Origin: a virus
Length of the DNA: 64,000 nucleotides
Reading direction: 5' to 3' (one strand)
Virus record (IMG/VR): IMGVR_UViG_3300032770_000012
Span: 37,194 to 101,193 of that record
Shown here: positions 1,990-49,610 of the stretch, in pieces
Position numbering within the stretch: the first letter of the stretch is position 1
Layout of the letters: each line of letters starts with the position of its first letter
Translations under genes and position numbers: made by a program
Notes under the pieces: generated by a model
Told to the model about the DNA's origin: nothing
Databases searched by the model: none
Seen by the model: the letters and a program-made list of their open reading frames with translations, nothing else

Positions 1990-2967
1990 ATGGCCAGCGA
2001 ACCGAAAACTCTCCAAGAAGCGCTGATCTACTTCGCCGACCCGAAGAACTGCCGTGAGTACCTTGTCGCGCGGCGCTGGCCGAATGGCGTCACCTGCCCG
2101 CGCTGTGGTAGCGACAAGGTTGCATTCCTTGAAAAGTACAATCGCTGGCAGTGCAGTGCGAAAACTCATAAGGATCGGCAGTTCACTTCCAAAACCGGAA
2201 CGATCTTTGAAGACTCTCCGCTTGGCTTAGACAAATGGCTTGCAGCAATGTGGCTGCTGGTGAACTGCAAGAACGGCATCTCCAGTTACGAAGTGTCGCG
2301 CGATCTGAAAGTCTCGCAGAAATCCGCTTGGCACATGCTGCACAGAATCAGGCTCGCCACGCAGGATAAAGCGACTGGCGGGAAGCTGTCCGGGGAAGTC
2401 GAGATCGATGAGACCTTCATTGGTGGCAAAGCACGGAACATGCATAAGGGGAAACGCGAAGAGAACATCACCGGCACGGGCGGCAAAGACAAGACCGCCG
2501 TCATGGGCATGGTGGAACGCGGCGGCAAGGTTCGTTTGCAGGTAGTGGACAACCGGCGCAAGAAGGAATTGCAGAAGCAAGTTCGCGAACACGTCGAAGC
2601 TGGCGCGGCGATCTTCACTGACGAACTGAAATCCTACGACGGTCTGGAATCCGATTATCAGCACGCCGTCATCAATCACGCCGTTGAATACGCGGACGGC
2701 AACGTCCACACCAACACAATGGAGAACTTTTGGAGTCTCCTGAAGCGCGGATTGCACGGAACCTATATCAGCGTGGAACCGTTCCATCTTTTTCGTTACC
2801 TGGATGAGCAGGCATTCCGCTACAACAACCGCAAGGATAATGAGGGCGAAACGTTGACCGACAGTGACCGCTTTGATTTGGTCGTCCGACAGATCGTAGG
2901 AAAGCGCTTGACTTGGGCCGAAGTCACCGGCAAGGTGAAGGAAATTCCGCCGTCATCCGCTAACTAA
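1990..2967 (+). CDS. IS1595-family DDE transposase
   Basis: RWPNGVTCPRCG Zn ribbon, HTH, VEIDETFIGG, IFTDE, HTNTMENFWSLLKR, YLDEQAFRYN. Confidence 0.97.
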   Translation: MASEPKTLQEALIYFADPKNCREYLVARRWPNGVTCPRCGSDKVAFLEKYNRWQCSAKTHKDRQFTSKTGTIFEDSPLGLDKWLAAMWLLVNCKNGISSYEVSRDLKVSQKSAWHMLHRIRLATQDKATGGKLSGEVEIDETFIGGKARNMHKGKREENITGTGGKDKTAVMGMVERGGKVRLQVVDNRRKKELQKQVREHVEAGAAIFTDELKSYDGLESDYQHAVINHAVEYADGNVHTNTMENFWSLLKRGLHGTYISVEPFHLFRYLDEQAFRYNNRKDNEGETLTDSDRFDLVVRQIVGKRLTWAEVTGKVKEIPPSSAN

Positions 2968-3228
2968 GAAGGAATCAAAGCGCCAACAGCGCGGGAAACG
3001 CAAAAGGGTCTAGCACTCTCCAAAACGGAGTGCTGTTTTCTTGTTTGACACGATCCATCTCGGTAGTAGAATGGAGGATAGTCCTTGACTGATTGGGGAC
3101 GCCGTAGAAATTGGCGTCCCGCGCGGTAGGTAAGAAGGGCCTGAACAACCCAATCCTACCGTCCTCCCCCGCAAAAAGTCAAGCAATAAAATGGACGAGA
3201 GAACTGTGTCTGAATCGAAGGAGAGCAT

Positions 3229-25978: not shown

Positions 25979-28822
25979 ATGGCGGACTATCTTAGACCCT
26001 ACCAGCGCCGCGAACTCATCAAGGCGTACCGATCCTGGAAAGCGGGCTGCACGCGGCAACTATGGTGTCTTCCAACGGGGGCGGGGAAAACTTTATGTGC
26101 CGCGATCATCCCGCAGTGGAAGATTCTGGGAGAAAAGGGCCAATTGTGGTTCCTGGTCCACCTGGACGAACTTGTAGGCCAAGCGGAGCGCACCTTTAAA
26201 CGGATCAACCCAACGCTGCGCGTCGGAATCGAAAAAGCCGAGCAATACGCAAGTCCAGATCTGGATATTGTCATCGCGTCTATACCGAGCGTGGAGCGTA
26301 ATGACTGCGAGCGCATCCGGCGCTTTGATCGCCGCCGCATCCGAGCCGTCGTATGCGACGAAGCTCATCACCTAGTCAGCAATCAGCACCGTGCCGTCGT
26401 GACGGCCTTAGGGGTCATGAAGGGCGATCCCGATGCCGATCCTTCCCGTTTGTTCGCGGGCATCACAGCGACGCCCCTGAGGAGTTCCGGGGAGGGCCTA
26501 GAGGCATTCTTTGACGAGATCACGATCTCGGTCGGGATGCGCGAACTGATGACAACTGGCCCAGAGATCAACGGCTCGATCTATCCCTGGTTGGCGGACG
26601 CTGTTGCTTACCAGATCAACACGGACATCGATCTCGATCAGGTCAAGATTCGGGCGGGCGACTTCATGCCGAAGGATCTTGGCCGTCTCATCAATACGCC
26701 GGAGCGCAATGCTTTGGTTGTGCGCAAATACCAGGAATTCGGATTGGGTTTGCCGGGATTGGCTTTTACTTGCAGCATCGAGCATTCGCATGATCTGGCG
26801 AGTGCCTTCAATACCGAGGGTCTCCCTGCCGTCGCCGTCAGCGGCAACACCTCTCGGCGCGAGCGCGACTCGATCATCGCCCGGTACAACACTGGCGAGA
26901 TAAAGGTGCTCACCAGTTGCTCTGTATTCGTGGAGGGATTCGATCTGCCGAGAGCTACCGTGAATGTACTGGCAAAACCGACAAGGAGTAACTTGCTTTA
27001 TTGTCTTGATGGGGAAACCGAGATCTTGTCTTCCGAAGGATGGAAAACGATTGGCAATATTATTCCTGGAGATATCGTATGCGCTGTTGAGCCTGAGGAT
27101 CTTAGGGCCCAATGGGTCCCCGCCGATTCAGTAATCGAACGGATAGTTTGTCCAGAGGAGAAAATGGCGAGCCTTGTGAGCGCCCGCATGAATTTTCGGG
27201 TTTCCGATAAACATCGCATGTTGTGTTTTGATCGGCATGGGAATCATCCAGATTTCGTACTCGCAGAACAACTTGCAGTTTGCTCGCATTCTTATAAACT
27301 TCCGGTTGCCGCCATCTCTTCTTTCCCGGACGCTCCGTTGACCGATGACGAACTGCGGCTCATCGGATGGTTCTTGACCGATGGATGTCACAACCGGAAG
27401 AATAATGCCATCAACATCTGTCAATCGATCACTCATCCTGAATATATAACAGAGATCAGGTCAATCCTCGACTCCTGCCGGATTCGATACGGAGAAGCCA
27501 AGCGAACGGGTTCCAATTTTGGGTCCAAATATGCGGACCGCATTGTCTTTTACTTCAGCAAAGGAGACCCGCGCAAAATCTCTGAGCGTAACAAGCGTGG
27601 ATGGTCCTATTTATCCGCGTACCTAGACAAATCCTTTACTGATTCACTGATGGCCGTATCTGACAGACAGCTTGGAGTGATGCTTGAGGCTATGAACAAA
27701 GGCAACGGTTCTAAGTGCCAAAAGATTACTTGGACGCGGCGCAGCTACGACATTTGTTTTGGCAACAAGAGGTTGGCCGAGCGCATTCAAATCGCCTGCA
27801 TAACGCATGGATTCGCTTGCAATCTGTCGATTATTCCCGCTTCCGAAAAGCGCAAGAGCGAATTTTACATGCTCCATATCAAAAAGAGGGCCTTTAGTAT
27901 CGTTGGTGGCACAACCCTATCACATGATCGACCAACGCTTGCGTTGGCGGACCCAAAACCTTCAGAACGAGTTTGGTGCGTCTCCAATCGAATCGGCACT
28001 ATTGTGACCCGCAGGAAAGGCAAGGTCTGTATTGTCGGTAACTGCCAAATGCTCGGACGTACCTTTCGGCCTTACCCGGCACCGGAAGACTACTTACGCA
28101 TGGTCGCGGCTGGTCAGCGGCCCGATTACATCAAGCCTCATGCGATCATCCTGGATTTTGCCGACAACTGCGGTCGCCACGCCGGGGCCTTAATGCAACT
28201 TCCAACGCTCTACGGCCTGCGCCCGGACTTCAACATGCGCGGCAAGAGCGTCACCGAGGTCGTGGAGGAAATCGAGCAGTTGCTTGAAGTCCAGCCCGCC
28301 ATCGATCTTCAGCACTGCCGGTCGATCGAGGATGTCCGCTCCCAGGTCGATTCGGTCGATCTGTTTGCCGTGCCGGTGATCCCGGAGAAGATCCGCAAGC
28401 TGGCAAAGTTTCACTGGTTCCAGCTTTGGAGTGATTCCTATCAGTTGCGAACTTTGGTCGGAACTGTCGAAATTCGTCAGAACTTGCTTGGGGCCTACGA
28501 GATCTACGTATCGAGGAACGGGCAGCGCGTCTTACGTAACAGCCTCAGCGATCTGCGCGAGGCCGTTCAATTCGGAGAGAGTCTCGTACCGCCCGAGGAG
28601 CGGACATTGCATCGTAAGTCGGCCAAGTGGTTGTCAAAAGAGCCGACGTTCGCCCAATGCGATCTCTTGAGGAATAAAGATAACCGTTTCCGCGCTCGTT
28701 TTGAATCCAGCAAAGAACTCTTCCGACACGTTATGTGCGAATTTCGAAACGGAAACAAAAGCTATTCTCGTGGTGGAATTTCCAGGGCCATAGATCGGAT
28801 GAGGCTTTCCGGCTTGAAATAG
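25979..28822 (+). CDS. Superfamily 2 (DEAH, ResIII/Irc3-like) helicase with an intein
   Basis: LRPYQ, PTGAGKT, DEAHH, TATP, VEGFD; motif VI Y|CQMLGR split by the intein. Confidence 0.95.
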   Translation: MADYLRPYQRRELIKAYRSWKAGCTRQLWCLPTGAGKTLCAAIIPQWKILGEKGQLWFLVHLDELVGQAERTFKRINPTLRVGIEKAEQYASPDLDIVIASIPSVERNDCERIRRFDRRRIRAVVCDEAHHLVSNQHRAVVTALGVMKGDPDADPSRLFAGITATPLRSSGEGLEAFFDEITISVGMRELMTTGPEINGSIYPWLADAVAYQINTDIDLDQVKIRAGDFMPKDLGRLINTPERNALVVRKYQEFGLGLPGLAFTCSIEHSHDLASAFNTEGLPAVAVSGNTSRRERDSIIARYNTGEIKVLTSCSVFVEGFDLPRATVNVLAKPTRSNLLYCLDGETEILSSEGWKTIGNIIPGDIVCAVEPEDLRAQWVPADSVIERIVCPEEKMASLVSARMNFRVSDKHRMLCFDRHGNHPDFVLAEQLAVCSHSYKLPVAAISSFPDAPLTDDELRLIGWFLTDGCHNRKNNAINICQSITHPEYITEIRSILDSCRIRYGEAKRTGSNFGSKYADRIVFYFSKGDPRKISERNKRGWSYLSAYLDKSFTDSLMAVSDRQLGVMLEAMNKGNGSKCQKITWTRRSYDICFGNKRLAERIQIACITHGFACNLSIIPASEKRKSEFYMLHIKKRAFSIVGGTTLSHDRPTLALADPKPSERVWCVSNRIGTIVTRRKGKVCIVGNCQMLGRTFRPYPAPEDYLRMVAAGQRPDYIKPHAIILDFADNCGRHAGALMQLPTLYGLRPDFNMRGKSVTEVVEEIEQLLEVQPAIDLQHCRSIEDVRSQVDSVDLFAVPVIPEKIRKLAKFHWFQLWSDSYQLRTLVGTVEIRQNLLGAYEIYVSRNGQRVLRNSLSDLREAVQFGESLVPPEERTLHRKSAKWLSKEPTFAQCDLLRNKDNRFRARFESSKELFRHVMCEFRNGNKSYSRGGISRAIDRMRLSGLK
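27002..28042 (+). mobile_element. Intein (347 aa) with LAGLIDADG endonuclease, inserted in helicase motif VI
   Basis: CLDGETEILSSEGWK, SDKHRM, LIGWFLTDG, VWCVSNRIGTIVTRRKGKVCIVGN then Cys+1 (penultimate Gly). Confidence 0.93.
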
Positions 28823-28845
28823 GAGCGAACTCCTCGTCCGCTCCT
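28821..28845. terminator. Hairpin between the convergent helicase and GGY array 1
   Basis: Minus-strand 10-bp stem aggagcggac/gttcgctcct with a 5-nt loop, directly 3' of the array. Confidence 0.65.
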
Positions 28846-28850
28846 CAATT

Positions 28851-29057
28851 GGGCCGTACCGATCCATACCGCACCATTGCCGGGCGATCCTTATCCAGCC
28901 AAGCCGGATCAAGCCCGACCAAGCCATTACCACCCCCTGCCGAGCCGGGCCTGACGCCGCCCCTGCACGCCGAACCCCGACCAGCACGACCGTACCGCAG
29001 CCAACAACGCCAGCGCCTTGCCTGTCCTGATCGTGCCTTGCCACTCCCGAACGAACC
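28851..29057 (-). repeat. GGY-NN pentamer array 1 (putative guide-like ncRNA)
   Basis: Minus strand reads ggttc gttcg ggagt ggcaa ggcac gatca ggaca ggcaa ggcgc ... ggctt ggtcg ggctt gatcc ggctt ggctg gataa ggatc ... ggtgc ggtat ggatc ggtac ggccc; starts 15 nt after the RAMP-like stop. Confidence 0.85.
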
Positions 29058-29071
29058 ACGGTTTATCCCGT

Positions 29072-29689
29072 TTACTCTACGACAAATTTGACTACCTGAA
29101 ATCTCCCAAAGCTGGGCCGGAAATCTCCGACGCCGACCAGACGTCCAGCGGATTGGAATACCTCGTTCAACAACTGATCCGAGATGTACTCCGGTAGTAC
29201 GCACTCTAGTCTGACCTTGATCCTCCAGCCAATCTGCATTGCTGGCCTGCTCCGCGTGATCGCGGACTTTTGAATCACTACTCGCCTACGGTCTAGGTAG
29301 TCCCAGTCCTTGACGCCCAACGAGCAGTACTCGTCCAGCGCGATGATGCCAGCCTTGAAGATGTCCATGGCGGACTTGCGCGGAGACCTCGGGTCCTGCT
29401 TGAATTTGGCGGCACCGATGATGGACATTCTGAAATACTCGCTCGGGATCGCCAGATTTCCTTTGGAATCGCGGTAGACGTAACTCTCGGTGTCGTCGGT
29501 CTTCTTGGCCTTGCTGCCTTTGGAGGCTCTGGCTTTTTCCTCCACTCCTTCCACGCTCCATCGATGGAACAGGAATGGGCTGGTCCCAACAATTTCGGCC
29601 TGGACCACATAGGGTTCGCTGAATGAAATGATCTTGCCGCCATCATTGCTGACAGGGGCCAAAACGGTGGCCTGATTTGATTTTGCCAT
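29072..29689 (-). CDS. Stand-alone Cas7/RAMP-like protein
   Basis: RRM beta1 VVQAEIVGTSPFLFH, LAIPSEYFRMSIIGAA (cf. IPGSSLKG helix), C-terminal Gly-rich loop AGRLVGVGDFRPSFGRFQV; GAGG RBS. Confidence 0.78.
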   Translation of the reverse strand: MAKSNQATVLAPVSNDGGKIISFSEPYVVQAEIVGTSPFLFHRWSVEGVEEKARASKGSKAKKTDDTESYVYRDSKGNLAIPSEYFRMSIIGAAKFKQDPRSPRKSAMDIFKAGIIALDEYCSLGVKDWDYLDRRRVVIQKSAITRSRPAMQIGWRIKVRLECVLPEYISDQLLNEVFQSAGRLVGVGDFRPSFGRFQVVKFVVE

Positions 29690-29708
29690 GTTTATACCTC
29701 GTATACCG

Positions 29709-29750
29709 ATACTACTTTAGTCTTGCAGTATAGTCAAGACTTGATATACT
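29709..29750. promoter_or_regulatory. Overlapping divergent promoters with operator-like inverted repeat
   Basis: Minus: TTGACT (29737-32)-17-TAGTAT. Plus: TTGCAG (29723)-16-TATACT with extended TG. IR AGTCTTG-N9-CAAGACT at 29719-29741. Confidence 0.7.
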
Positions 29751-29756
29751 GTTCAC

Positions 29757-29918
29757 ATGAAAGATTCGGATCGAGAGTTTTTGCACTTTCTGATACCAAA
29801 AAGGCTCCTCGAACGGATCGAGGAGTTTCGGTTTAAGAATCGTTTCCCATCAAGAGCGAGAGCGATCACTTGGCTCTTAGACTGGGCTCTATCCAACAAT
29901 CCTAAACCCGAACAGTGA
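29757..29918 (+). CDS. Ribbon-helix-helix (CopG/Arc-like) regulator, 53 aa
   Basis: Manual translation MKDSDREFLHFLIPKRLLERIEEFRFKNRFPSRARAITWLLDWALSNNPKPEQ; probably leaderless. Confidence 0.8.
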   Translation: MKDSDREFLHFLIPKRLLERIEEFRFKNRFPSRARAITWLLDWALSNNPKPEQ

Positions 29919-29938: not shown

Positions 29939-30190
29939 GGTTTACAGCGCTGCGGCAGTGCGGGGCGTAGGTTAGGCCGTCCATGGTACGTAAACGGCAT
30001 GGTCGTCTGATGCGAGGTCTGGCGGGGCGGTCTGAGATTAGGTTCGTTGCGGTCGTGCGTGGAAATCAGCGGTAAGGCGGGCAGATGTTGGGTACGCTAA
30101 GGCAAGGCTCTGTATGGCCCGGTATTGTTCGCAATGGTTATCCGGGGAATGGCAGACATAGGCTGTGTTAGCAGTGGCATGGAAAGGTCT
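29939..30190 (+). repeat. GGY-NN pentamer array 2 (putative guide-like ncRNA)
   Basis: 29996-30190 is 39 consecutive in-phase 5-mers: 19 begin GGY, 3 GGA, 6 TGY; further units upstream with two 1-nt slips. Confidence 0.88.
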
Positions 30191-35587: not shown

Positions 35588-36985
35588 TCACATTGAACTC
35601 CAGAAGTCGCCGCCCTCCACCTTGCCCTTGGTGGGATTCCTAATCGGGTAAGGAGCATCAGGTGCGGGAACTCCTAGAAATCCGCACAATTCGGTCCAGC
35701 CGGTAGATGCGTCCATATCCATCACCAACAGATCTCGCGGGCGATCTCTGAAATATTCTTTGACTTCCGCGTTGTGGCGTCTATAACGCGCCAGGAATAT
35801 TCGCGGGGAAAAATCCTTTTGGCCATACAACGCTGTATGAATCCGATTGGTGAACGGATAAATATCCCAGAGTTTGCGCGTGGGGTTGTGCTTATAGCTC
35901 CACAGTCCCTCCACGCTTTTGAGCCAATCACGCTCGTTCCGTATGGTCAGAATGAACTTCGATCCGGGATAAGCCCGGTCCAGTTTCCTGTAAAGCAGCG
36001 GAATCGGAAGATCGGACAGCGCATACCACTGCTCCAATGTTTTGGAGCGACCGAGAGCATTCATTTCCTGCCAGATCAACGGGGATTCTCCATTTCCCCA
36101 ATGAAAGCTGTCGAATCCCAGGAGTTGCAACGCTGCGTGGAGAGAACTGGTAGCCGTTTTGTGCATACCAATACCGAATATTCGCGTCGGAATGGGCTTG
36201 AGTTCAATGGGCGTCGATTCGAAATTGCGGTATACAACACCTACTCCGAATTTTCCGTAATTTACGACGGTTTCTGTCCTGGATTCAATGGCTCTCCACT
36301 CCTGGTTATTTTCGTACTGTCTGGCGTGCGGATACTCTTTGAAGCGCACTTCTGCGCTGTGCGGAATAGCATTCAGGTACCGGTTTTCAATGTGCCGCAT
36401 CGAGTAGCCCATGCGCCTGAGGCGATTTATCATGTCGATGTCTTCGCCGTGCCAAGTATCAAAGCTCTCGTCATATCCACCGGCCTTTATGAAGGCGCTG
36501 GACCAGACGGCTAAACGCCCGGCATATCCGCGCTGCGGGCGCTCGGGGCCATGCGGAAGGCTCTTGATGAGCGGGAAGTCCGGACAGAGGAAGATGCCCG
36601 GTACCATTCCTGGTTCCTGGAATTTTTCGGCCACGAATTGGGCGAAGTTCGGTCCTGTGAAGTTGTCGGCGTCCAGCGTGACCAGGATTTGCGCTCCCTC
36701 CAGTATGCCGCAACGGGCGGCTGTATTTTTCGCATGCGAGACGTGAAAGGGGCCTTCAGTAGGGTGAGAGTAGACGACCAGACGGCCAGCCGAGATTGCA
36801 TCGGGGTGTTTGGATCGCAGGCAGTCCAGCAGGCCATCCTTGTCACCGTAGTCCAGAACCACAAATTTGAGGTTCGGGTAGTCGGAGTTGTCGGCTAGGT
36901 TGCGTGGCAGGGTTTGCTCAAGGTGCTGCATCCGGCCCTTGCATGTCGTCGCGAACGCTATGCGCGGAGTACTCATTGAAGCCAT
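35588..36985 (-). CDS. Glycosyltransferase (GT2/GT7C-like) fused to a PAPS-dependent sulfotransferase
   Basis: LDADN DxD, GGYDESFDTWHGEDID; C-terminal 5'-PSB IGMHKTATSSL and 3'-PB FILTIRNERDWLKS. Confidence 0.88.
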   Translation of the reverse strand: MASMSTPRIAFATTCKGRMQHLEQTLPRNLADNSDYPNLKFVVLDYGDKDGLLDCLRSKHPDAISAGRLVVYSHPTEGPFHVSHAKNTAARCGILEGAQILVTLDADNFTGPNFAQFVAEKFQEPGMVPGIFLCPDFPLIKSLPHGPERPQRGYAGRLAVWSSAFIKAGGYDESFDTWHGEDIDMINRLRRMGYSMRHIENRYLNAIPHSAEVRFKEYPHARQYENNQEWRAIESRTETVVNYGKFGVGVVYRNFESTPIELKPIPTRIFGIGMHKTATSSLHAALQLLGFDSFHWGNGESPLIWQEMNALGRSKTLEQWYALSDLPIPLLYRKLDRAYPGSKFILTIRNERDWLKSVEGLWSYKHNPTRKLWDIYPFTNRIHTALYGQKDFSPRIFLARYRRHNAEVKEYFRDRPRDLLVMDMDASTGWTELCGFLGVPAPDAPYPIRNPTKGKVEGGDFWSSM

Positions 36986-37503
36986 TCTGGAACAACTTCG
37001 CGGCTAACAAGTTCCGGGTAAGAAGAATTTTTTATGACAGACTCGATTACAAAATCCCGCATCGCCATGCCGCGCTTGGCGGCTTGATATTTGATGGACC
37101 ATAAGAAATCTTCGGAAACACGCACGGCCAGAATCGAATCCCCAATACCCCTAGCGGAGCGTAGCCTTTCGCCTTCATTAGCGGGCAGGCGGTCCAGGTA
37201 CTTCTCCGACGGACTTTGATTGTTACGCTTTAGACGGTTCGCGAGCGGCCTATAAATATTCATGGCCGTTAACTCGGCCTTTAGGGCTTCGCGGCTATCA
37301 GCGTACCATCCGAGTATCGTGACATAACAAACGCATTCGCGCACCGTGCGCCACCAAGTCGCGTTCCTCCCGCCACTAGACATGGCGCGCAAAATGCTCC
37401 CTTTGCCGATATAAACGAACCCAAGCTCCTCGCAAACATGTGCGTAGACGCAATAGTTTGCCCAAGGCGGGGCATGGAAGGATCTTTTGGATGCTCGGGC
37501 CAT
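36973..37503 (-). CDS. GIY-YIG domain fused to a C-terminal RHH domain
   Basis: YCVYAH...FVYIGKG...RA...EALKAE...PLAN; tail KYQAAKRGMAMRDFVIESV. Confidence 0.75.
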   Translation of the reverse strand: MARASKRSFHAPPWANYCVYAHVCEELGFVYIGKGSILRAMSSGGRNATWWRTVRECVCYVTILGWYADSREALKAELTAMNIYRPLANRLKRNNQSPSEKYLDRLPANEGERLRSARGIGDSILAVRVSEDFLWSIKYQAAKRGMAMRDFVIESVIKNSSYPELVSREVVPEWLQ

Positions 37504-48258: not shown

Positions 48259-49610
48259 GGGCGAACCTCCGGGGCTTTTACGGATGAGCGCCACAACTTC
48301 AGCATCCTCTCGATGGATTGCTTGCCGCGTTCATCATCGTAGTAAGGCCGGTAGCTCTTTCCGCCAGATTTAGCAGCCTCTTTGAGCCATTCGTTCTTTT
48401 GCGCGATCGAAGCCTTCTCGAATTGCTCTGGCGTCACACCTTTTGATTTCAGGTGCGCAATGATGGATTGATCCTTGGCGGTCGCGGCCACGTCCAATTG
48501 ACCGGCACGCTGAGCGGCCCACTCCGATAGTTCCTTAGACGAGCTGGGCTCGGGTACCTTGCTTGCAGGAACGCTTTTCTCCGTTGCGGCAGTTCCCCCT
48601 TCTGACAGCGGGCGCATTTGGGATGCCGTGCGGCTGGTGGACCCTTTTGGCGCGGCTGGAGCCGGTGGAGGCGGCTCGGGCTTGGGCGCTGGCGGGGGAA
48701 CGGTTGATGCTGAGCGCGGCGGCGGGGGCGGCGGAGGCGGAGGTTCTGGTCTTGGGCTAGGCGGGGGAACGGTTGATGCTGAGCGCGGTGGTGGTGCCGG
48801 TGGTGCTGGCTCTGGCTTGGGTATTGGCGCGGGCCGAATACTCGGCGACATGGGGGCAGGCTGCGGTTTGGCGGCTGCGGTTTGGCGCGGCGCTTTTAAT
48901 TGAGCCTGGAGTTCCTTGATCGCGGCGACGCGATCCCCGGCAGTAGATGGCGCTTTGCCATGAGTTTCCTCGAATAGCTTGAAGGCTAATTCGTCACGCC
49001 CTGATTTGGGAACTCCCTCCAGGGCTTCTCCAAATTGACCCCGCAGATGGTCTAGGACCTCCAGGGCCGTACCGCCTCCCGGCATCCTGCGGATTAGGAA
49101 TCTGGCTACGGCGTTCATCTTCGGCAGTTTGCTTACGACCGCCCTGGAAGCATCCGCAGCTTCTGTCGCTACTTTTCCACCCCGCTCCATGAGGCCACCG
49201 ATACCAGCTACCGCTCTGCCAGCGTAGGGCGCTCCAGACATGAACACGTCGTAGGCGGGACCAGTGTCTATATCGGAAACCGGGGCCTCGGGATGCTCTC
49301 GGTTATACTGCTCTACCATTGGGCTGGGTCCTGTCAGAGCCTTTCGGACGGTCTCCGCTCCGCGCTCGACGTACCCAATCGGCTCTGGCGTCATACGAAC
49401 GCTTGGGCGTGTCCCTCCGCGAGGCAGCGGACCAGACCAACCTGGAGCAATATCTTCTCGAACCATGGGCTGCACATCTACGAACTGAGCGTACTGCGGG
49501 TACTTGGCCTTGACCATACGACCAAGATCCACGTTCGAGATTCCTTCGTATGCTTTTGGGTATTTCTCTTTAACGAGTTTTCCCAAATCTTCGATGGTCT
49601 GTTGCGCCAT
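48255..49610 (-). CDS. Putative internal virion/ejection protein with Pro-rich linker
   Basis: Position after pilot genes; duplicated PPPRSASTVPPP (29-bp repeat at 48691 and 48760). Confidence 0.6.
   Translation of the reverse strand: MAQQTIEDLGKLVKEKYPKAYEGISNVDLGRMVKAKYPQYAQFVDVQPMVREDIAPGWSGPLPRGGTRPSVRMTPEPIGYVERGAETVRKALTGPSPMVEQYNREHPEAPVSDIDTGPAYDVFMSGAPYAGRAVAGIGGLMERGGKVATEAADASRAVVSKLPKMNAVARFLIRRMPGGGTALEVLDHLRGQFGEALEGVPKSGRDELAFKLFEETHGKAPSTAGDRVAAIKELQAQLKAPRQTAAAKPQPAPMSPSIRPAPIPKPEPAPPAPPPRSASTVPPPSPRPEPPPPPPPPPRSASTVPPPAPKPEPPPPAPAAPKGSTSRTASQMRPLSEGGTAATEKSVPASKVPEPSSSKELSEWAAQRAGQLDVAATAKDQSIIAHLKSKGVTPEQFEKASIAQKNEWLKEAAKSGGKSYRPYYDDERGKQSIERMLKLWRSSVKAPEVRP

What the first reader, a model, noticed from the sequence alone, without database searches (positions are those of the whole stretch)
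29939..30190. Array 2 keeps strict 5-nt phase over 39 units; the NN string is a decodable candidate target code
Seen: 29996-30190 parses without indels into 39 pentamers (19 GGY, 3 GGA, 6 TGY, 11 more degenerate). Positions 4-5 read at cg ga ga ct gg gg ga ta tc gc cg gt aa gc aa gg ga tg ac aa aa tc at cc at tc at ta gg at ag ta tg ta gt at aa ct. They are diverse and non-repeating, unlike a slippage microsatellite. Inference: the phase is under selection while NN carries information. I did not find or search for a target.
Basis: partly seen in the sequence, partly recalled or inferred. Interest (0 to 1): 0.85.

Follow-up and report, generated by a model that had tools for sequence, protein, structure and literature searches.

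The report
Phage VIPR guide-RNA array (vrRNA)

Summary
Positions 29996-30190 (+) parse into 39 in-phase pentamers: 19 GGY, 3 GGA, 6 TGY and 11 degenerate, with near-random NN. No shuffle reaches this phasing.

The adjacent 205-aa gene (29689..29072, minus strand) is a Vipr protein. A family profile hits the solved SUSP1 Vipr (PDB 36pp) at E 6e-11. The GGY-binding residues are kept and the predicted fold is Cas7/Csm3-like. The cassette is therefore a VIPR system (bioRxiv 10.64898/2026.04.26.720920 and .720927).

In 228 related loci, GG-phased arrays lie within 1 kb of vipr, 546 on its strand and 18 opposite. Unit position 3 is 79% pyrimidine and positions 4-5 carry 2.00 bits of entropy each. 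I retested the published 1-nt-skip code on 432 arrays of this clade. Matches of at least 19/20 numbered 19 with a 1-nt gap, against 0, 0 and 2 for gaps of 0, 2 and 3, and 1 for shuffled NN. Seven of the 19 lie in rival vipr genes.

For array 2 itself no target is established. The best candidate is units 25-35 matching 22/22 in an intergenic site of three IMG/VR contigs (about 0.06 expected by chance).

This scan has already noted VIPR loci in at least 276 other genomes. Verdict: a real new member of a known kind.

The parts
29996..30190 (+). Array 2, in-phase part: 39 GGY/NN-type pentamers. Probably about three concatenated vrRNA guides.
   Evidence: parse and shuffle test. The RNA folds no better than shuffles, z +1.43, as expected for a protein-coated single strand.
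29939..29995 (+). Leader part of array 2: about 11 weaker pentamer units in two other phases, each offset by one extra base.
   Evidence: Read directly from the sequence.
30116..30170 (+). Units 25-35 of array 2, a candidate single guide. It matches 22/22 NN bases under the 1-nt-skip rule in an intergenic site of three IMG/VR contigs, with sharp edges on both sides.
   Evidence: Chance expectation is about 0.06. Unproven.
29757..29918 (+). 53-aa ribbon-helix-helix-like repressor gene, a candidate vap-type accessory or regulator. It is probably co-transcribed with array 2.
   Evidence: Matches phrog_4738 (transcriptional repressor) at E 8e-6. Homologues occur only in L152 and L113, where they are also divergent from vipr and sit next to opposite-strand arrays.
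29690..29756 (.). Divergent promoter region with the inverted repeat AGTCTTG-N9-CAAGACT (29719-29741), a possible operator.
   Evidence: Two promoter-like sites on the minus strand. The inverted repeat was read from the sequence. Function is inferred.
29072..29689 (-). vipr gene: a 205-aa stand-alone RAMP (Cas7-like) protein.
   Evidence: Family profile against PDB 36pp 'SUSP1 Vipr protein', E 6e-11. AlphaFold2 pLDDT 84. Foldseek top hits are Csm3/Cas7/Cas7-11, E 3e-6 to 1e-4. Matches phrog_4652 at 4e-20. More than 5,500 unnamed homologues.
28851..29057 (-). Array 1: GGY/NN pentamers directly downstream of vipr, in three phase-shifted blocks (28958-29057, 28877-29011, 28851-28935).
28821..28845 (-). 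10-bp hairpin closing array 1, a likely terminator or 3' cap.
   Evidence: Fold energy -26.1 kcal/mol, z -3.2, and 0 of 200 shuffles fold as well.

Best explanation
The tract is a vrRNA guide array of a phage-encoded VIPR (Viral Interference Programmable Repeat) system. It is transcribed from the divergent promoter together with the small RHH gene. On the RNA, one Vipr protomer (the 205-aa RAMP encoded next door) binds each pentamer. The protomer flips out and holds G1, G2 and Y3 and presents N4 and N5. The resulting helical filament pairs the NN dinucleotides with double-stranded DNA that reads NN-x-NN-x (one skipped base per unit) and represses transcription of the bound locus, most likely in a rival phage or mobile element.

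The 39 units are most likely about three concatenated guides of 10-16 units rather than one 117-bp guide.

Shown here: Vipr homology and fold, conserved GGY-contact residues, the array statistics, conserved linkage of vipr and arrays on the same strand, hypervariable NN, and the 1-nt-skip signal in this clade.

Taken from the papers: filament formation, R-loop triplex and silencing.

Inferred: transcription of array 2, guide boundaries and the identity of the target.
For: Protein evidence:
- The family profile hits PDB 36pp_D 'SUSP1 Vipr protein' at E 6e-11 over residues 27-196.
- SUSP1 residues shown by cryo-EM and mutagenesis to bind GGY or DNA align to invariant or near-invariant residues here: H17=H42, K33=K57, E71=E84, K82=K95, K88=R101, R138=R148, and D177-W178-R179=D189-F190-R191.
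- The predicted fold is Cas7/Csm3-like.

Array evidence:
- 39 in-phase units, beyond any shuffle.
- In 228 related loci, arrays lie within 1 kb of vipr, 546 on the same strand and 18 opposite.
- Over 11,675 units, position 3 is 79% C/T and positions 4-5 have 2.00 bits of entropy.

Code evidence:
- For 432 arrays searched against 2.05 Mb of vipr-linked loci, best 10-unit matches of at least 19/20 numbered 0 (gap 0), 19 (gap 1), 0 (gap 2), 2 (gap 3) and 1 (gap 1 with shuffled NN).
- No such hit appeared in about 1 Mb of unrelated IMG/VR DNA.
- Matches run 10-16 units with sharp edges inside longer arrays, and 7 of 19 fall in other phages' vipr genes. One example matches the FLFHRW motif with the skipped base at the wobble position.
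- No self-target occurs in the phage's own 101-kb contig, as the paper also reports.
Against: - Only 22 of 39 units start with GG, whereas related arrays such as L001 have about 50 of 60, so array 2 may be partly decayed.
- No structured 3' tail follows it (z 0.13), unlike the pseudoknot tail of type II vrRNAs.
- It lies on the strand opposite vipr, which is true of only 3% of arrays in relatives.
- No statistically secure target was found for any window of array 2.
- Expression and RNP formation are untested.
Confidence: 0.9

Rival explanations
1. Array 2 is a decaying or retired vrRNA array. It derives from a VIPR array, but with 44% of units lacking GG it no longer assembles a full filament or guides anything.
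For: 17 of 39 units lack GG. No secure target was found. It has the rare opposite-strand position.
Against: Strict phase is kept over 195 nt with no indel, which neutral decay would break. In confirmed guide-target pairs of relatives, degenerate units still match their target at NN (profiles). The paper notes frequent internal degeneracy of functional vrRNAs. The RHH-plus-opposite-strand-array module recurs in L152 and L113.
Confidence: 0.12
2. Array 2 acts as a decoy or redirecting vrRNA. It loads a rival phage's Vipr protein and diverts it, as satellite-encoded solo vrRNAs do, rather than guiding the phage's own Vipr.
For: The third VIPR preprint describes stand-alone vrRNAs that redirect another element's VIPR (abstract). 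Array 2 sits in a separate transcription unit from vipr.
Against: It lies 250 bp from the phage's own vipr inside one compact divergent cassette. Nothing distinguishes its units from those of array 1. No decoy site was found in 401 Acidobacteriota genomes for units 6-19.
Confidence: 0.07
3. The tract is not a guide at all. It would be a G-rich structural or slippage element (two-tier G-quadruplex DNA or RNA, or a TRAP-like protein-titrating RNA) that sits next to the RAMP gene by coincidence.
For: GG-N3 periodicity could in principle form G-quadruplexes. This was my first working idea, before the PDB hit (statement).
Against: The tract is linked to a Vipr homologue on the same strand in more than 200 independent loci. 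Pyrimidine preference at position 3 is not needed for G-quadruplexes. The 1-nt-skip matches to real genes in relatives show that NN is read as sequence. Tandem Repeats Finder finds no slippage repeat.
Confidence: 0.02

Closest known systems
VIPR systems (Vipr + vrRNA + vap); reference type II system of Escherichia phage SUSP1 and a Pseudomonas fulva prophage (bioRxiv 10.64898/2026.04.26.720920, 10.64898/2026.04.26.720927, 10.64898/2026.10.15.759431)
   Same: A stand-alone RAMP protein with the same GGY-contact residues. GGY/NN pentamer RNA genes flank it in a phage genome. NN is hypervariable. The 1-nt-skip code is seen in this clade. Guides are aimed at relatives, including their vipr genes. 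There is no self-targeting.
   Different: The protein is only distantly related to SUSP1 Vipr: E 6e-11 by profile, roughly a quarter of aligned residues identical by eye in the alignment, and tblastn of the phage collection shows one close homologue at 55% and one at 25%. Its type (I-VII) could not be assigned. The arrays are long and tail-less: 39 units here and 60 to about 130 in relatives, against 9-16 units plus a pseudoknot tail per vrRNA. Array 2 is on the opposite strand behind a 53-aa RHH gene. The RHH partner is present in only 3 of 229 loci.
Class 1 CRISPR backbone proteins (Cas7/Csm3/Cmr4, Cas7-11)
   Same: RRM core, G-loop and thumb fold. Foldseek top hits have E 3e-6 to 1e-4 and TM about 0.5. 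One protomer binds per fixed RNA period, with flipped bases.
   Different: No CRISPR repeat-spacer array and no other cas genes. The period is 5 nt with 3 bases sequestered, rather than 6 nt with 1 flipped. Guides are genomically hard-wired and are not acquired.
VIPR 'staggered' vrRNA arrays (fig. S18 of 10.64898/2026.04.26.720920)
   Same: Contiguous vrRNAs without intervening tails or ribozymes. Phase shifts of one base occur between blocks in array 1 and in the 29939-29995 leader.
   Different: In 29996-30190 no phase shift marks guide boundaries. The figure itself is not available as text, so the comparison rests on its legend only.

Membership tests
VIPR system | Stand-alone Vipr protein: a minimal RAMP with RRM core, G-loop and thumb, homologous to characterised Vipr | tested here: met
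   The family profile hits PDB 36pp_D SUSP1 Vipr at E 6e-11 over 170 residues. The AlphaFold2 model has pLDDT 84. Foldseek finds Csm3/Cas7 folds.
VIPR system | Residues that recognise G1, G2 and Y3 and contact the DNA (SUSP1 H17, R138, D177, W178, R179, K33, K82) | tested here: met
   These align to H42, R148, D189, F190 (W to F, still aromatic), R191, K57 and K95. All are invariant or at least 90% conserved in 35 family members.
VIPR system | Tandem GGY/NN (YNNGG) pentamers, at least 4 units, in intergenic DNA flanking vipr | tested here: met
   Array 2 has 39 in-phase units and array 1 has three blocks. The same linkage holds in 228 related loci.
VIPR system | GGY conserved while NN is hypervariable between related systems | tested here: met
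   Position 3 is 79% Y and positions 4-5 have 2.00 bits of entropy over 11,675 units. The window's NN strings match no other array better than shuffles do.
VIPR system | Targets follow the 1-nt-skip rule (NN-x-NN) | tested here: inconclusive
   The rule is met for the clade: 19 arrays score at least 19/20 with gap 1, against 0, 0 and 2 for the other gaps and 1 for shuffles, with a negative control. For array 2 itself there is only one candidate, a 22/22 match of units 25-35 with chance expectation about 0.06.
VIPR system | Accessory vap gene next to vipr | tested here: inconclusive
   A 53-aa RHH-like repressor gene is adjacent, but homologues occur in only 2 other loci. An SF2 helicase follows vipr in 28 loci and lies convergent to it here.
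VIPR system | Structured 3' tail capping each vrRNA (described for type II) | tested here: not met
   No significant fold lies 3' of array 2 (z 0.13), and only array 1 ends in a hairpin. There is no conserved 3' flank across 519 arrays and no ribozyme or other Rfam family. The paper describes tail-less architectures in other types, so this argues against type II, not against VIPR.
VIPR system | vrRNA is expressed and co-purifies with Vipr; the complex represses matching DNA | not testable with these tools
   Requires sRNA-seq, pull-down and reporter assays.
CRISPR-Cas (class 1) | Repeat-spacer array and a cas operon (Cas5, Cas6, large subunit, adaptation genes) | tested here: not met
   No CRISPR-like repeats. 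Neighbours are phage helicase, exonuclease, HNH and methyltransferase genes.

The most novel reading that the evidence does not exclude
This very large, unnamed Vipr clade (more than 5,500 proteins) may use an architecture not characterised in the VIPR papers. It has long, tail-less, strictly phased arrays (39 units here, 60 to about 130 in relatives) that are read as several 10-16-unit guides. Guide boundaries would be set by something other than a 3' pseudoknot or ribozyme, or by one continuous multi-guide filament. An optional second array would be driven from a divergent RHH-regulated transcript. Units 25-35 of array 2 would then silence an intergenic control region of an unrelated rival phage (L253/L255/L257).
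Probability: 0.3. Interest if true: 0.5.

Novelty: new member of a known kind. Interest (0 to 1): 0.3.

Why it matters
The locus is a genuine example of it. The class was published in 2026 and this scan has already flagged it in at least 276 genomes, so the locus adds breadth rather than a new principle. It places VIPR in a 101-kb uncultured phage, possibly of Acidobacteriota. It belongs to a clade of more than 5,500 unannotated proteins, one of which is mis-annotated in GenBank as an HTH regulator. The clade analysis gives an independent replication of the 1-nt-skip rule and of VIPR-against-VIPR targeting outside Enterobacteria and Pseudomonas. The long tail-less arrays raise a concrete open question: how guide boundaries are set.

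Tried and rejected
Ideas considered and dropped:
- A TRAP-like or G-quadruplex reading (my first idea). I dropped it after the PDB hit to Vipr.
- Known RNA families or hammerhead ribozymes. None was found at gathering threshold or at E<1.
- A slippage repeat. Tandem Repeats Finder does not report the tract.

Target searches that gave nothing above background:
- Self-targeting in the phage's own 101-kb contig under gaps 0-3: nothing above shuffles.
- The window's arrays against 2.05 Mb of vipr-linked loci: nothing above shuffles.
- A codon-level match to 121 Vipr proteins: none.
- Exact 1-nt-skip seeds in IMG/VR: units 1-10 gave 0 hits. Units 17-24, units 32-39 and array 1 block c gave only chance-like extensions.
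- Units 6-19 with up to 3 mismatches: 0 of 401 Acidobacteriota genomes.
- Convergence of other guides on the 22/22 candidate contigs: none. Those contigs carry no vipr and share no genes with this phage.

One hit rejected as chance:
- Units 6-19 match 25/28 in the VapE-like primase gene of Burkholderia proviruses. About one such hit is expected in a database of this size. The skipped base is not the wobble position. The host (67% GC Burkholderia) does not fit a 55% GC phage whose helicase is nearest to those of Tunturiibacter (Acidobacteriota) phages.

- The VIPR type (I-VII) could not be assigned from the paper text or its supplement.

Full report
**Observation.** Positions 29996-30190 on the plus strand parse without indels into 39 pentamers. 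Of the 30 GG dinucleotides in the tract, 22 fall in one phase. In 20,000 shuffles the best-phase count averaged 8.5 and never exceeded 16. Information per unit position is 0.95, 0.77, 0.54, 0.11 and 0.07 bits. Tandem Repeats Finder does not call the tract, so it is not a slippage repeat. The stretch 29939-29995 holds about 11 weaker units in two other phases. A second array lies on the minus strand at 28851-29057, in three phase-shifted blocks.

**Context.** The two arrays flank a divergent gene pair. A 205-aa gene (29689..29072, minus strand) is followed by array 1 and a strong hairpin (z -3.2). A 53-aa RHH-like repressor gene (29757-29918, plus strand; phrog_4738) is followed by array 2. An inverted repeat (29719-29741) and promoter-like sites lie between the two genes. 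Neighbouring genes are phage replication and nuclease genes. The whole record is a 101-kb virus contig.

**Identification of the protein.**
- The 205-aa protein has no Pfam family and matches only phrog_4652, of unknown function.
- It has more than 5,500 unnamed homologues.
- A profile of 35 family members hits a single solved structure, 36pp 'SUSP1 Vipr protein', at E 6e-11 over residues 27-196.
- The AlphaFold2 model (pLDDT 84) resembles Csm3, Cas7 and Cas7-11.

That name led to three 2026 preprints on VIPR systems. These describe a lone RAMP protein, Vipr, that polymerises on vrRNAs built of alternating GGY and NN. It holds GGY and presents NN, and the NN bases pair with double-stranded DNA while skipping every third target base. 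The result is silencing of rival phages and satellites. The SUSP1 residues shown to bind GGY or DNA align to invariant residues here: H17=H42, K33=K57, E71=E84, K82=K95, K88=R101, R138=R148, and D177-W178-R179=D189-F190-R191.

**Family-level tests.** I fetched 228 related loci from viral, genome and metagenome collections.
- GG-phased arrays lie within 1 kb of vipr in nearly all of them, 546 on the vipr strand and 18 on the other.
- Over 11,675 units, position 3 is 79% pyrimidine, although position 3 was not used for detection. Positions 4 and 5 have maximal entropy.
- The window's NN strings match no other array better than shuffles do. Near-identical loci do share NN strings, which serves as the positive control.

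Best 10-unit matches of at least 19/20 numbered 0 for gap 0, 19 for gap 1, 0 for gap 2, 2 for gap 3 and 1 for gap 1 with shuffled NN. Against about 1 Mb of unrelated IMG/VR DNA there was no such hit, and gap 1 behaved like gap 2. The matches run 10-16 units with sharp edges inside longer arrays, so long arrays are concatenated guides. Seven of the 19 fall inside other phages' vipr genes. One example covers the FLFHRW motif with the skipped base at the wobble position. This independently replicates the published code and the VIPR-against-VIPR targeting in a different clade.

**Array 2's own target.** No target is established.
- There is no self-target, no hit in the 2-Mb local set, and no codon-level hit in 121 Vipr proteins.
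- Exact 8-10-unit seeds tiled across the array were scanned in IMG/VR.
- A 25/28 match in Burkholderia provirus primase genes is consistent with chance and with the wrong host.
- Units 6-19 with up to 3 mismatches were not found in 401 Acidobacteriota genomes.

The one notable result is that units 25-35 match 22/22 with sharp edges in an intergenic, repeat-rich region of three contigs. Two of these are 99.8% identical and the third is about 80% identical in the flanks. The only difference inside the site falls on a skipped base. From dinucleotide frequencies calibrated on the seed counts, I expect about 0.06 such hits by chance. The contigs carry no vipr, share no genes with this phage, and attract no other guide. 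They do share genes with other VIPR-carrying phages, which 11% of control contigs also do. I treat this as an unproven candidate.

**Differences from the characterised systems.**
- There is no structured tail after array 2 and no conserved 3' flank in the clade.
- There are no ribozymes.
- Array 2 is on the strand opposite vipr, behind the RHH gene. This arrangement is seen again only in L152 and L113.
- Only 56% of units keep GG.
- The VIPR type could not be assigned.

**Verdict.** It is already explained by published work, and the scan has noted VIPR loci in at least 276 other genomes.

Noticed in passing
L015:2863-2932 against L011:3100-3141 and L028:144-184; also L111 to L205, L139 to L187, L190 to L188, L199 to L193, L179 to L204, L142 to L185: vrRNA arrays of one phage match, under the 1-nt-skip rule (19-20 of 20 NN bases), the vipr gene of another phage. 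In the one pair checked (L015 to L011), the site is the conserved FLFHRW strand that holds the G1-binding histidine, and the skipped base falls at the codon wobble position.
   Followed up: partly
L001:2685-2984; L042:2350-2849 (minus strand); L071:3563-4232; L075:3634-4298; L222:7125-7624: Relatives carry very long in-phase pentamer arrays of 60 to about 130 units with no visible tails or spacers. In L001 the array runs up to the ribosome-binding site of vipr, so it would be the 5' UTR of the gene.
   Followed up: partly
window 25979-28822 (+); 28 related loci, e.g. L049:4221-5195: An SF2 (ResIII/DEAD) helicase gene lies directly after vipr and its downstream array in 28 loci, mostly from Planctomycetota. 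In the window it lies convergent to vipr. In several of those loci the helicase gene start is itself a vrRNA target (L044, L052, L053 and L056 to L049:4269-4336). It may be an accessory gene or simply the usual insertion neighbourhood.
   Followed up: partly
L337 (GenBank OR003939.1, Phage DSL-LC04) 2501-3118: A cultured or named phage encodes a 55%-identical Vipr homologue annotated as 'helix-turn-helix transcriptional regulator', which looks like a mis-annotation. A 320-bp unannotated gap lies just upstream of it.
   Followed up: no
window 37221-37300: An array of the related phage L011 (2789-2923) matches this phage at 18/20 (17/18 over the first 9 units) under the 1-nt-skip rule, inside the ORF 36973-37503 (minus strand). 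The score is at the upper edge of background, so this is only a lead that the window phage is itself targeted.
   Followed up: no
window 48620-48900: A Gly-rich coding repeat (GGC/GGT runs, with 14-nt and 6-nt tandem repeats) gives a secondary peak in the GG-phase scan. It is unrelated to the VIPR arrays.
   Followed up: no
L255:3600-4100: The candidate target region is a 750-nt intergenic stretch upstream of a small-terminase-like gene. It has repeated TAAGTTATTGATA and AGAGTCT motifs and looks like a regulatory, origin or packaging region.
   Followed up: partly
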